From: Escherichia phage CMS-2020a
Sequence record: CP054387.1
Reading direction: 5' to 3' (one strand)
DNA length: 64,000 bases
The position numbers are program-made. Of the stretch, positions 1-3,000 are shown piece after piece; positions within the stretch are counted from its first letter, which is position 1, and each line of letters opens with the position of its first letter.

Positions 1-3000
1 ATGTCCACAAAAAATAAAAAAGGTAAAAATAACAAAGAAGTAGAAGATAACATCGACAACTTTGAAGAAGGTTCCCTTGAATTGTACACAGGGGAACTTG
101 TCCCTAATAGCAACAATACAGTCCAACCAATTGCGTTGATGCGACTGGGGTTGTTCGTCCCCACGCTTAAGGGAACAAAATACAGTAAACGTAACAAGCC
201 AAATGAGATCGATGCTTCAAAGGAGCTTGTCCAGCTCGAAGTAGCCCGTTCTGAAGGCTATTCCGATATCAAGATAACCGGTCCTCGTCTCGACATGGAT
301 CATGATTTCAAAACGTGGGTGGGCGTTGTGCGTTCGCTGGCAGAATACGGCGAACCTAACGGTCGTGTCGAGTTAAGCATCACGAAATTTGCTAAGTTTT
401 GTGGCTATCCATCGTCACAGATCCGCAAAACACTCCGCGACCGGCTTACAAACAGTCTTTTGAAGATCATGCGTACAACTCTGTCTTTCCAGAGAACGTA
501 TGAAGAAAAGAACGTCGACGGCTCTAACAAGATCTCGCTTCTGATGGTGCACCTCATCAATAGCGTGGACTACAACGAGCAGAAAGATACGGTGGTGTTC
601 TATGCAGAACCGAAGCTGGCCGAACTATATCGCTTTGACCATAAGGTTCTTTTGCAGTTAAAGGTTATCAATAAGCTACCACGCAAAGAAACAGCACAGG
701 CTCTGTACACCTTCATCGAAAGTCTTCCAACCAAGCCTGCGCCGGTATCGCTTGCTCGATTGCGTGCGCGACTCAATTTGAGTAGCAGGAATGTCAGCTC
801 GCAGAATCAGACTATACGTAACGGCTTAAAAGCTCTCCAAGATTTGGGCTATCTCGAATACAGCGAGATTAAGCGTGGGCGGTCGATCTATATCCAGATT
901 CACAGCCGCAATCCAAAACTCAAAGTCGCACCGCCAAAACCTGAAGACATCGAACCCAAAAAACCAGATGAGAAAGCTGGGGAAATTGATGCCAAACAGA
1001 ACATTATCAACAAGATAACCGAACTTTCGCAGAATTTGACGCCTGAAAATATCAAGATGATTGAGATCCTTTCCAATAGTCTCAAACTGCTTTGATATGC
1101 TGTCAGCGGTGAAATGTATGCTATCAGCGGCTATTTTTCTGAAAAGTATGCTGTGAACGGTTAAAGATATGCTACCAGCGGTATAGTGAGATGAACGTAT
1201 GCTGTGAGCGGTAAATCATCTATCACCACTCAATGCTCTGTCATACCTCCCCAGTGGTTACTAACCTCGAAGAGTGCATTCCATATAGGTTTGCGCTCAC
1301 TAACATTCTATTGCTATTGCGCTGATTGCTTGTAGTGAAAGGCATTTATTGCCTGCTACTCCCTGATAGAACGTATGCTGTCAGCGGTGTTTTATTGAGG
1401 AATTTTTGTTTGGATATGCTATCAGCGGTAATTAATGGCATATGTCAGACATTCGTATGCTGCCAGCGGTAATTTTGTTCTGGTTATACCCATACCGGTA
1501 CACATTATTCATGCAATGTCTTAAGTATGCTGTCAGCGGTAAAAAATCGAGTAAAGTATGCTGTGAGCGGTGAGATAGACTCTCGATATGCTATCAGCGG
1601 TAGTTGATTGTGTATGCTGTCAGCGGTGACGACTATGAAATATGACTGCGGAACGTGCCGCAGTCAGTTTGCATTTAGTGTATTTTCTTTAACAGACCCC
1701 AAAGTGTTCCGGCTTTTGTAGTCAGTTTTCCTGTTTCTGGATCGTACATACGCCATTCACGCCGCTGGTGGACGATATACCCATCTTCACGTTCCAGACG
1801 CTCAAGAATGCCAGGCTGCTTGAAACCCTTAGCACGCCAGTAGCCGCTTGTTTTCTCGATTTCCAGACCTGCCAGTGTTAATGCCATTACCCAACCTCCT
1901 TGCAGTCATCGAAAAGGTAGCTTTGCTGAGAAGCGTGAACGCCATAGAAGCCCTTGTATTTGTTGTATACGAAGTGGTCTTCTCCGACGCCGGTTAATTT
2001 GCCATTACGATTTGTGAGATATGGGGATGACAACACTCGATCGTCACGCACAACATAGAACTGGTCGCCGCTGTCTACGACCATCGCTCCATATGGTGCT
2101 TTTATGACGTCGGTAAGAGCGCCATTCTTAACGTCGGCTACAGACATTTCACACTGATAAACAGTGGTGTCGGCCACAACGATCGAAGAAAGAAACAACA
2201 GCGCGAATGGGATGGTCTTCATGCTGCCACCTCTTTGATTACATCAAATGCTGAATTAAATACGAGCACGATAGCCAAAGCGTTTATGACTACGTCGTGC
2301 ACCGGGGAAAAGACTTTACGAATGACACCAGTGAAAATGCAGTCGATGACAAAAGCTATTGAAACGATGAGTAACAAGTATTCAATAAAAATCTTCATGA
2401 TAGGTAGATACTAACTTATATAAACTTTACTGTAAACTCACTCAAAAGTGCTGATGCTTAAAATACGCTCAAGATGTTCAGCATCTTCATTACTGATTTG
2501 TTGAGTCTCTTCTACGTACCAACAGTTGCCGTTATGCCAACAAACACCATCATCATCAACCATCACTGAATCAGCGTCATGACCTGTATATTCAACAAGA
2601 GTACGCTGGATCAGCGCGTCAGTTTCTTCATCGTTAAGGCCATCGACTTTGACCATAAAAAGCGGAAACACGTCATAGACAGTGCTGGTAACGATTCGAA
2701 CTAAAACTCTCATGTGTTTTTCCTTTTGTGGTTAGTGTTTACTTATTTTGTTAGTTATGAATAGGCGATCAATCTTCTTGGTTAGGGAAAAACTGTTCAA
2801 TAACTCTGTCAACGGCTGTGTCTATATGGAGTAGATGCCACACAACCATATCTTTGCTTCCCATGCCTTGTGTGAATATCACGTCATACTTACGCCATGC
2901 GCAGTGGAACCAATATGCTGAGTCATCAATTGGTAAATCCTCTCCCGCCTCTTTGAAGTATTTCAGCAGCATTGCCTGCTCTGCCGTTGGCGTTGGACCT

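What the first reader, a model, noticed from the sequence alone, without database searches (positions are those of the whole stretch)
1..1680. Plasmid-type origin: Rep-like gene followed by 12 direct iterons
Twelve same-orientation copies of a 17-bp repeat lie in two clusters (1094-1212 and 1372-1627) just after the plus-strand 364-aa ORF. This is the architecture of iteron-controlled theta plasmid origins. With the ParA locus and toxin-antitoxin pair it points to maintenance as an extrachromosomal plasmid prophage.
Basis: partly seen in the sequence, partly recalled or inferred. Interest (0 to 1): 0.6.

Follow-up and report, generated by a model that had tools for sequence, protein, structure and literature searches.

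The report
P1-type plasmid replicon of phage-plasmid
The gene and its twelve repeats are the already catalogued plasmid-replication module of a common E. coli phage-plasmid, but the repeats in the window are most likely its copy-number brake, while the true origin lies just upstream of the gene, outside the window.

Summary
Twelve same-strand copies of TATGCTRYSARCGGT follow a 364-aa ORF, against about one expected by chance. The ORF is a winged-helix iteron initiator, 46% identical to phage P1 RepA. The window's first 1,700 bases are 100% identical to about 110-kb E. coli and Shigella phage-plasmids of the pECOH89/p09EL50 family, typed IncFIB(H89-PhagePlasmid). In 5,426 complete E. coli genomes this replicon was found only on plasmid records.

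The window is cut at the repA start codon. In circular relatives, the 250 bp just upstream of repA hold two DnaA boxes, six GATC sites in 56 bp, a GC-rich block and five more iterons spaced 21-21-21-23 bp. The non-iteron part of this stretch is 72% identical to P1 oriR. None of these origin features occurs in the downstream array.

The twelve iterons therefore correspond by position to P1 incA, a dispensable negative copy-control array. Natural variants carry 8 to 13 downstream iterons, while the upstream five are constant. This is a known kind of replicon and of low interest.

Two side observations came up. A conserved 58-bp element sits inside the array with its orientation flipped between replicon types. 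An E. coli CRISPR spacer matches repA.

The parts
1..1095 (+). repA: a 364-aa iteron-binding replication initiator (WH1-WH2, Rep_3 / P1 RepA / RepFIB type). The ATG at position 1 is the likely true start.
   Evidence: Pfam Rep3_N scores 37.5 bits against a 22.4 cutoff. PHROG 775 gives 5e-133. BLASTP identity to P1 RepA is 46% over residues 20-284 of 286, E 3e-86. The AF2 model matches RctB domains 2-3, RepE and pPS10 RepA by Foldseek. Homologue alignment shows that conservation begins at this Met.
1096..1212 (+). Proximal downstream iteron cluster: 5 direct copies with spacing 21, 30, 21, 30, starting immediately after the repA stop codon.
   Evidence: P1 incA starts at the same position relative to the repA stop.
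1250..1310 (-). Conserved ~58-bp element in the 161-bp spacer. Read on the - strand it is ATGTTAGTGAGCGCAAACC-n22-GAGGTTAGTAACCACTGGGG. Its function is unknown and it is probably not a RepA site.
   Evidence: The element is conserved in Salmonella, Cronobacter, Klebsiella and SSU5-type replicons even though their iterons differ, and its orientation is flipped in the SSU5 type. It is unique in the window. It is deleted in p204A1-109K.
1374..1627 (+). Distal downstream iteron cluster: 7 direct copies with spacing 41, 41, 70, 31, 30, 26.
   Evidence: Copy number varies in natural variants: the distal cluster has 4 copies in PhiR41_1 and 8 in p4_0.2.
1643..1666 (.). GC-rich hairpin (9-bp stem) that matches the terminator pattern on both strands. 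It separates the iteron array from the convergent minus-strand operon that ends at 1675.
   Evidence: L001 7643-7666 = window 1643-1666. Inverted repeat I1.

Best explanation
Window 1-1680 is the repA gene plus the downstream control array of a P1-type, iteron-regulated theta replicon. The replicon maintains an SSU5-like E. coli phage-plasmid of the pECOH89/p09EL50 family, typed IncFIB(H89-PhagePlasmid), as a low-copy plasmid prophage.

The proposed mechanism is inferred from homology with P1 and F. RepA monomers bind five phased iterons just upstream of repA. Together with host DnaA at two adjacent boxes, they open the neighbouring AT-rich stretch carrying the GATC sites, and replication starts there. 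That origin lies outside the window, on the other side of the point at which the circle was linearised. The same five iterons overlap the repA promoter, so RepA represses its own synthesis.

They are extra RepA-binding sites that hold copy number down, by titrating RepA and by RepA-mediated pairing ('handcuffing') with origin iterons. They also exert incompatibility. They are not needed for initiation.

Shown here: the homology, the anatomy, the co-variation of Rep and iterons, the plasmid-only occurrence, and the natural variation in copy number of the downstream array. Inferred, not shown: RepA binding, where initiation occurs, autoregulation, and the negative role of the downstream array.
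For: 1. RepA is a homologue of P1/P7 RepA: tblastn gives 43.5% identity, E 2e-64, and BLASTP gives 46%, E 3e-86. Pfam Rep3_N scores above its cutoff, as it does for P1 and SSU5 RepA. The model's best PDB matches are iteron initiators: RctB, RepE and pPS10 RepA.

2. In p09EL50, whose sequence is 100% identical over window 1-1700, the upstream region holds DnaA-box-like sites at L001 5758 and 5766. It also holds six GATC sites at 5780-5835, where GC falls to 30%, then GCCGCGCCACG, then 5 iterons at 5880-5980 spaced 21-21-21-23.

3. This block aligns with the annotated P1 oriR (DnaA site, Dam sites, incC). It is 72% identical, with a local score of 98 against 14.6 +/- 2.3 for shuffles.

4. A record that starts at the repA ATG, as the window does, carries this block in its last 250 bp.

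5. The downstream array contains no GATC and no DnaA box.

6. Across 7 annotated records and about 45 IMG/VR loci, the upstream set is always 5 iterons with invariant spacing. The downstream set ranges from 8 to 13, always on the same strand. Variants appear to have lost or gained units by recombination between iterons: PhiR41_1 has 9, p204A1-109K has 8 and has lost the spacer, and p4_0.2 has 13.

7. P1 and SSU5 carry unrelated iteron sequences in the same two positions, which is Rep-iteron co-variation.

8. The replicon is found only on plasmid records, in 118 of 5,426 complete E. coli genomes. p09EL50 is visible as a ~110-kb plasmid on PFGE.

9. Published plasmids typed IncFIB(H89-PhagePlasmid), MW590712 and CP124485, are 99.7-99.8% identical to this window.
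Against: There is no experiment on this replicon. I found no published mini-replicon, footprint or copy-number study, and one possibly relevant 2026 preprint could not be read.

The simple sigma-70 scan found no + strand promoter in the upstream iterons, so autoregulation rests on analogy with P1.

The downstream array differs from P1 incA. All 12 copies are direct, against 3 forward and 6 reverse in P1, and they are split by a spacer that carries a conserved non-iteron element. Its regulatory behaviour could therefore differ.

The P1-type parABS is not adjacent.

The Rep3_C (WH2) HMM score is below its cutoff (13 against 21.1 bits). The AF2 model is only moderate (mean pLDDT 70), and its Foldseek TM-scores are low (0.2-0.5) because the domain arrangement differs.
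Confidence: 0.85

Rival explanations
1. The two downstream iteron clusters are themselves the replication origin, as in plasmids whose oriV iterons adjoin rep, and 1-1700 is a self-sufficient minimal replicon.
For: Iterons are the core of many plasmid origins. The array abuts repA. A moderately AT-rich stretch (GC 35%) lies between iterons 6 and 7.
Against: There is no DnaA box and no GATC anywhere in 1096-1680. The sequence homologous to P1 oriR is upstream of repA. Copy number and spacing of the downstream array vary freely among isolates, and one natural plasmid lacks iterons 3-5 and the spacer. The fragment also lacks the repA promoter region. In the annotated homologue P1, incA lies downstream of repA and the origin features (DnaA site, Dam sites, incC iterons) upstream. 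That the origins of F and RepFIB are likewise upstream of rep is my own knowledge, not tested here.
Confidence: 0.06
2. The downstream array is a second, conditional origin or a switch element used in the phage (lytic) mode. The conserved 58-bp element would act as a binding site for a phage-encoded factor.
For: A non-iteron element conserved across replicon types sits inside or beside the array. The element encodes its own replisome genes: dnaE, a primase and a DnaB-like helicase.
Against: No origin-like features are present. The 58-bp element is dispensable in at least one natural plasmid (L007). In the Klebsiella type it lies outside the array.
Confidence: 0.05
3. The repeats are recombination or attachment sites (pJN2-26 annotates two of them as attL/attR), or a partition centromere, rather than initiator-binding sites.
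For: GenBank MZ779062 labels two iterons as attL/attR.
Against: There are 17 copies in total, not 2. They flank a Rep_3 initiator exactly as in P1. The replicon was found on no chromosome among 5,426 E. coli genomes. The repeat sequence co-varies with Rep, not with the integrase or ParA. The attL/attR label looks like an artefact of an automated prophage-boundary tool.
Confidence: 0.02

Closest known systems
Phage P1 plasmid-prophage R replicon (oriR-incC-repA-incA; GenBank K02380)
   Same: RepA is 46% identical over the whole P1 protein. The order of parts is the same: tandem DnaA boxes, GATC cluster, GC-rich block, five iterons at 21-bp spacing, repA, then an iteron array starting at the stop codon. 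The non-iteron origin DNA is 72% identical.
   Different: The iteron sequence differs (TATGCTGTCAGCGGT against GATGTGTGCTGGAGGGAAA). There are 12 downstream iterons, all direct and in two clusters, against 9 in P1 (3 forward, 6 reverse). P1 has extra DnaA boxes between incC and repA that are missing here. This RepA has a ~30-aa N-terminal extension and a ~55-aa C-terminal two-helix tail. The P1-type parABS is not adjacent. The phage backbone is unrelated: siphovirus-like SSU5 against myovirus P1.
IncFIB(H89-PhagePlasmid) replicon of pECOH89 / p09EL50 (E. coli SSU5-like phage-plasmids)
   Same: It is the same replicon. Window 1-1700 is 100% identical to p09EL50 and several Shigella and E. coli plasmids. 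It is 99.7-99.8% identical to plasmids published under that type.
   Different: Nothing differs in sequence. The published descriptions I could read do not dissect the origin or iterons.
Salmonella phage SSU5 / pHCM2-type replicon
   Same: The backbone and gene neighbourhood are the same: the 70-aa ORF downstream is 94% identical, and the 645-bp ORF upstream is also present. The architecture is the same, with iterons on both sides of repA. The conserved 58-bp element is shared.
   Different: RepA is only 48% identical. The iterons are unrelated (AACCACTGTAGAGAGTA). The downstream array has mixed orientation (5 forward, 8 reverse). There are two upstream clusters. The 58-bp element is inverted.
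Klebsiella 'IncpKPHS1' phage-plasmids (pKPHS1, pJN2-26)
   Same: RepA is 85% identical and the iteron sequence is the same, with the same 5 upstream copies. The literature already notes iterons downstream of repA (PMC6735626).
   Different: There are 8-9 downstream iterons in two clusters split by 87 bp. The 58-bp element lies after the array. The paper reports only 4 iterons and 'no known domain' for RepA, both of which are incomplete.
F plasmid RepE/ori2 and Vibrio cholerae RctB/ori2-inc
   Same: The initiator has the same WH1-WH2 fold. The logic is the same: a minimal origin plus extra regulatory iterons outside it that titrate and handcuff (for RctB).
   Different: There is no detectable sequence similarity beyond the Pfam domain. 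No 39-mer-type sites were identified here.

Membership tests
Rep_3 / winged-helix (WH1-WH2) iteron initiators | N-terminal WH1 domain (Pfam PF01051 Rep3_N) scoring above the curated cutoff | tested here: met
   37.5 bits against a cutoff of 22.4, residues 118-239. P1 and SSU5 RepA give the same hit.
Rep_3 / winged-helix (WH1-WH2) iteron initiators | C-terminal WH2 domain (PF21205 Rep3_C) | tested here: inconclusive
   The HMM score of 13.0 bits is below the 21.1 cutoff. The AF2 model shows a second helix-helix-hairpin unit at 251-303, and Foldseek aligns 220-300 columns to full-length RepE and RctB domains 2-3. The model is only moderate (pLDDT 70).
Rep_3 / winged-helix (WH1-WH2) iteron initiators | Cognate direct repeats (iterons) next to the gene, spaced in whole helical turns | tested here: met
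   There are 12 downstream copies in the window and 5 upstream copies in relatives. The upstream spacing is 21-21-21-23. The downstream spacings are mostly 21, 30-31 or 41.
P1-type R replicon | RepA orthologous to P1 RepA | tested here: met
   46% identity over P1 residues 20-284 of 286, E 3e-86.
P1-type R replicon | Origin upstream of repA with tandem DnaA boxes, a cluster of GATC (Dam) sites, and five iterons (incC) at 21-bp spacing | tested here: met
   This was tested in circular relatives that are 100% identical over window 1-1700 (L001, L132), not in the window itself. The features lie at L001 5758-5980. The block is 72% identical to P1 oriR.
P1-type R replicon | Iteron array (incA) beginning at the repA stop codon | tested here: met
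   The first iteron starts at 1096 and the stop codon is at 1093-1095. P1 incA is annotated from the repA stop. Copy number and orientation differ: 12 direct copies here against 3+6 in P1.
P1-type R replicon | incA is dispensable for replication and lowers copy number; incC and incA exert incompatibility | not testable with these tools
   There is only indirect support. Natural plasmids carry 8-13 downstream iterons, and one has lost iterons 3-5 plus the spacer. The P1 facts rest on established literature from the Chattoraj and Austin laboratories, not tested here.
P1-type R replicon | repA promoter embedded in the origin iterons (autorepression) | tested here: inconclusive
   The consensus scan found no + strand promoter. 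By alignment with P1's annotated -35 and -10, the promoter should lie in iterons 3-5. A candidate extended -10, TGGTATTCT, lies at L001 5940-5948; this is my reading.
P1-type R replicon | Type Ia parA-parB-parS immediately downstream of incA | tested here: not met
   Small minus-strand ORFs follow the array. A 222-aa ParA-type ATPase with a 119-aa partner lies at window 32521-33548.
IncFIB(H89-PhagePlasmid) replicon type | Near-identity of repA to the pECOH89 reference | tested here: met
   The window is 100% identical to p09EL50, whose RepA is reported identical to that of pECOH89. It is 99.7-99.8% identical to MW590712 and CP124485, which are published under this type. The PlasmidFinder database itself was not queried.
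SSU5-like phage-plasmids | Shared phage backbone and extrachromosomal state | tested here: met
   The neighbouring ORFs are shared with SSU5. The near-identical plasmid has tail, tape-measure, dnaE, primase and helicase genes. Two phage records match at 99-100%. The replicon was found only on plasmid records.

The most novel reading that the evidence does not exclude
The ~58-bp non-iteron element embedded in the control array (window 1250-1310) is a functional cis-site. It consists of two direct GTTAGTG boxes about 40 bp apart. It is conserved across replicon types whose Rep proteins are only 48% identical and whose iterons are unrelated, and it is inverted between the two types. It might bind a backbone-encoded or host protein that links plasmid copy control to the phage programme, or that acts in dimer resolution or partition. 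Such a component has no counterpart in P1, F or RepFIB replicons.
Probability: 0.2. Interest if true: 0.45.

Novelty: already known. Interest (0 to 1): 0.17.

Why it matters
This replicon keeps a widespread family of E. coli, Shigella, Klebsiella and Salmonella phage-plasmids extrachromosomal. It occurs in about 2% of complete E. coli genomes, and some members carry blaCTX-M-15. Knowing which repeats are origin and which are copy control matters for three things: replicon typing, predicting incompatibility, and understanding copy-number-driven resistance.

There are also practical lessons for annotation. The RefSeq 404-aa 'RepB' start is a translation of iterons. One GenBank record labels two iterons as attL/attR. 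A published description of the Klebsiella relatives counts only 4 iterons.

Biologically, however, this is the textbook P1 design on a different phage backbone, so it opens no new question on its own.

Tried and rejected
1. NCBIfam gave no hit for the ORF. A sequence search of the PDB gave nothing meaningful, so a fold search was needed.

2. I looked for origin features inside the window's iteron region. There are no GATC sites and no DnaA boxes. The one DnaA-like 9-mer, at L001 7004, lies inside repA and is probably chance. I found no match at the other end of the window either.

3. The short ORFs overlapping the iterons (1204-1335, 1326-1472, 1442-1573) and the 38-aa CDS annotated in PhiR41_1 were rejected as genes. 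They are translations of repeats and are disrupted in natural deletion variants.

4. I tested whether the spacer holds relic SSU5-type iterons. No match to the SSU5 iteron was found at up to 4 mismatches. Only a 9-nt half-match (CAGTGGTTA) turned up, so that idea is left open, not adopted.

5. Rfam gave no RNA family in 1-2300.

6. The consensus promoter scan did not find the repA promoter.

7. Literature searches found no experimental dissection of this replicon. A 2026 bioRxiv preprint on a phage-plasmid, repA and copy number (10.64898/2026.08.19.745698) is indexed but could not be opened.

8. Reading the repeats as attL/attR sites or as a centromere was rejected; see the rival explanations.
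Full report
**1. The observation**

A 364-aa ORF occupies window 1-1095 on the + strand. It is followed by twelve same-strand copies of a repeat whose invariant core is TATGCTRYSARCGGT. The copies lie at 1096-1212 (five) and 1374-1627 (seven). With up to two mismatches the whole 64-kb window has exactly these 12 matches. Dinucleotide-preserving shuffles give a mean of 1.0 and a maximum of 4. Start-to-start spacings are 21, 30, 21, 30 | 176 | 41, 41, 70, 31, 30, 26. Most of these are close to whole numbers of helical turns. A 9-bp-stem GC-rich hairpin at 1643-1666 matches the terminator pattern on both strands. It separates the array from a convergent minus-strand operon.

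**2. What the ORF is**

- The ORF scores above the curated cutoff for Pfam Rep3_N, the WH1 domain of iteron initiators (37.5 against 22.4 bits). It scores weakly for Rep3_C.
- It matches PHROG 775 at 5e-133.
- By BLASTP it is 46% identical to phage P1 RepA across virtually the whole P1 protein (E 3e-86; tblastn gives 43.5%).
- It is 48% identical to SSU5 RepA and 41% identical to proteins annotated 'RepFIB replication protein A' in P1-like phages.
- It has hundreds of homologues across Enterobacterales, all carrying PF01051.
- An AlphaFold2 model was built on a 40-sequence alignment (mean pLDDT 70; the core at 70-300 is mostly above 80). Its best PDB matches are RctB domains 2-3, F-plasmid RepE, the MSBI1.176 Rep WH1 domain (PDB 6h24) and pPS10 RepA WH1.
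- Compared with P1 RepA, it has a disordered lysine-rich N-terminus, a ~10-aa insertion in WH1, and a ~55-aa C-terminal tail predicted as two helices.

**3. What the element is**

Window 1-1700 is 100% identical to about 108-110-kb plasmids of E. coli and Shigella sonnei, including p09EL50 of E. coli O104:H4. It is 99-100% identical to two deposited phage genomes, CMS-2020a and PhiR41_1.

p09EL50 was seen physically as a ~110-kb plasmid on PFGE. Its RepA is reported identical to that of pECOH89, the CTX-M-15 'phage-like plasmid' related to SSU5 and pHCM2. Plasmids 99.7-99.8% identical to this window (MW590712, CP124485) are published as type IncFIB(H89-PhagePlasmid).

Among 5,426 complete E. 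coli genomes, the stretch 600-1700 occurs in 118. It is always on a plasmid record and never on a chromosome. A near-identical plasmid encodes tail fibre, tape-measure, dnaE, primase, DnaB-like helicase and ligase genes. The phage-plasmid context is therefore supported.

**4. Where the origin is**

The window starts exactly at the repA ATG, as do many database records of this plasmid family. Whatever precedes repA on the circle is therefore missing from the window.

In p09EL50, reading towards repA, the 250 bp upstream contain:
- two overlapping DnaA-box-like 9-mers (TTATTCACA and ATATCCACA);
- six GATC sites within 56 bp, in the most AT-rich stretch of the region (GC 30%);
- a GC-rich block, GCCGCGCCACG;
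- five further iterons spaced 21-21-21-23 bp, ending 20 bp before the ATG.

The same block occupies the last 250 bp of a record that is linearised like the window.

It aligns nearly base for base with P1 oriR as annotated in GenBank K02380, which marks the DnaA site, Dam sites and the incC iterons. The non-iteron part is 72% identical, with a local alignment score of 98 against 14.6 +/- 2.3 for shuffles. By contrast, 1096-1680 contains no GATC and no DnaA box.

PGAP's longer 404-aa ORF begins inside the first upstream iteron. Its extra 40 residues are the iterons translated (MLSAV...), and homologues start at the 364-aa Met.

**5. Comparative anatomy of the arrays**

I surveyed seven annotated records and about 45 IMG/VR loci recovered with the exact iteron.

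| Lineage or variant | Downstream iterons |
|---|---|
| E. coli type | 12 (5+7) |
| Salmonella type | 11 |
| Cronobacter type | 11-12 |
| Klebsiella type | 8-9 |
| PhiR41_1 (E. coli variant) | 9 |
| p4_0.2 (E. coli variant) | 13 |
| p204A1-109K (E. coli variant) | 8 (iterons 3-5 and the whole spacer lost) |

- The upstream set is always five iterons with the same spacing.
- The downstream set is always on the same strand as repA and always starts at the stop codon.
- The changes in the E. coli variants look like recombination between iterons.
- P1 has 5 upstream and 9 downstream iterons (3 forward, 6 reverse). SSU5 has two upstream clusters and 13 downstream iterons (5 forward, 8 reverse). Each has its own unrelated iteron sequence.
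- Rep sequence and iteron sequence therefore co-vary while the positions are conserved. This is the comparative signature of initiator-binding sites.
- A constant upstream set fits an origin/promoter role. A freely varying downstream set fits a dosage-type regulator.

**6. Most likely mechanism**

By homology with P1, RepA monomers bound to the five upstream iterons, together with DnaA, open the adjacent stretch that carries the GATC sites and start theta replication. RepA bound there also represses its own promoter.

The twelve downstream iterons act like incA. They sequester RepA and pair with origin iterons ('handcuffing') to limit copy number and cause incompatibility. Comparable regulatory iterons outside a minimal origin are described for Vibrio RctB/ori2-inc.

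Homology, anatomy and natural variation are shown here. Binding, initiation site, autoregulation and the negative role of the array are inferred. The P1 functional facts (incA dispensable and inhibitory; dependence on DnaA, Dam and DnaK/DnaJ) come from the established P1 literature, not from tests here.

It lacks the likely origin and the repA promoter, so its failure to replicate would not refute the replicon.

**7. Differences from P1**

- The iteron sequence is different.
- There are twelve downstream copies, all direct and in two clusters.
- There are no DnaA boxes between the iterons and repA.
- RepA has an extra C-terminal tail.
- The partition genes are not adjacent. A 222-aa ParA-type ATPase (MipZ/AAA_31/CbiA hits) with a 119-aa partner lies at 32521-33548 on the minus strand.

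**8. Side observations**

(a) The 161-bp spacer contains a ~58-bp element at window 1250-1310. It has two direct GTTAGTG boxes about 40 bp apart. It is conserved in the Salmonella, Cronobacter, Klebsiella and SSU5-type replicons.

Its 17-nt core occurs once per replicon, between repA and the conserved 70-aa ORF, in about 95 loci. It is always on the strand opposite repA in the H89, Klebsiella and Cronobacter types. It is always on the same strand as repA in the SSU5 type.

It is unique in the window, has no Rfam match, and is missing from one natural plasmid. Its function is unknown.

(b) A 32-nt spacer in a chromosomal type I-E CRISPR array of E. coli FCI56 matches repA at 532-563 perfectly. 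The protospacer is preceded by the canonical AAG PAM. The ten chromosomal places found with the full query disappear when the first 599 bases are left out.

**9. Verdict**

The feature is the already catalogued P1-type replicon of a common phage-plasmid. The iterons in the window are most probably the copy-control array, not the origin. Novelty is 'already known' and interest is low. The 58-bp element is the only item that might repay further work.

Noticed in passing
window 529-563 (inside repA): A 32-nt spacer of a chromosomal type I-E CRISPR array in E. coli FCI56 (next to ygcE) matches 532-563 at 100%. The window has the canonical AAG PAM at 529-531. Ten chromosomal places among 5,426 E. 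coli genomes match the first 600 bases. None matches 600-1700.
   Followed up: partly
window 1250-1310 (- strand); L004 3644-3700; L008 ~2445-2510; L009 ~2775-2840: A conserved ~58-bp non-iteron element with two GTTAGTG boxes about 40 bp apart lies between or after the downstream iteron clusters. It is present once per replicon in about 95 loci. It is inverted relative to repA between H89-type and SSU5-type replicons. It is absent from one natural E. coli plasmid (p204A1-109K).
   Followed up: partly
L001 5881-7095; L005 2378-2397 and 3648-3667: There are annotation artefacts in public records. PGAP's 404-407-aa 'RepB' proteins start inside the first upstream iteron, so the extra 40 residues are translated iterons. 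GenBank MZ779062 labels two iterons as attR/attL. PMC6735626 reports only 4 iterons and no domain for the Klebsiella RepA.
   Followed up: yes
window 32521-33548 (- strand): A 222-aa ParA-type ATPase (MipZ, AAA_31 and CbiA hits) is followed by a 119-aa ORF with no Pfam hit. This is probably the partition pair. It lies about 31 kb from repA instead of next to the iteron array as in P1.
   Followed up: partly
window ~10551-15485 and 18250-19734: By near-identity to NZ_CP045933.1, the element encodes its own DNA polymerase III alpha subunit and an AAA ATPase. It also carries an HTH regulator divergent from a tyrosine recombinase ('site-specific integrase'). Further along the relative there are primase, DnaB-like helicase and ligase genes. 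This implies a second, phage-mode replication system alongside RepA/iterons.
   Followed up: no
window 1096-1627 versus L002, L006, L007: Downstream iteron number varies among otherwise near-identical E. coli plasmids (8, 9, 12 or 13 copies). The breakpoints lie inside iterons, which suggests unequal recombination. This could serve as a natural series for testing copy-number control.
   Followed up: partly
window 925-1092 (RepA residues ~310-364): RepA has a C-terminal tail, absent from P1 RepA, that is predicted as two helices (329-343 and 348-363; pLDDT about 80). A tail is also present in most RepFIB-like homologues, which end in a conserved amphipathic motif. Its role is unknown.
   Followed up: no
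literature: The bioRxiv preprint 10.64898/2026.08.19.745698 ('Novel phage-plasmid mediated mechanism of antibiotic heteroresistance in Escherichia coli') mentions repA 41 times and copy number 20 times. It could not be opened, and it may bear directly on copy control in this kind of replicon.
   Followed up: no
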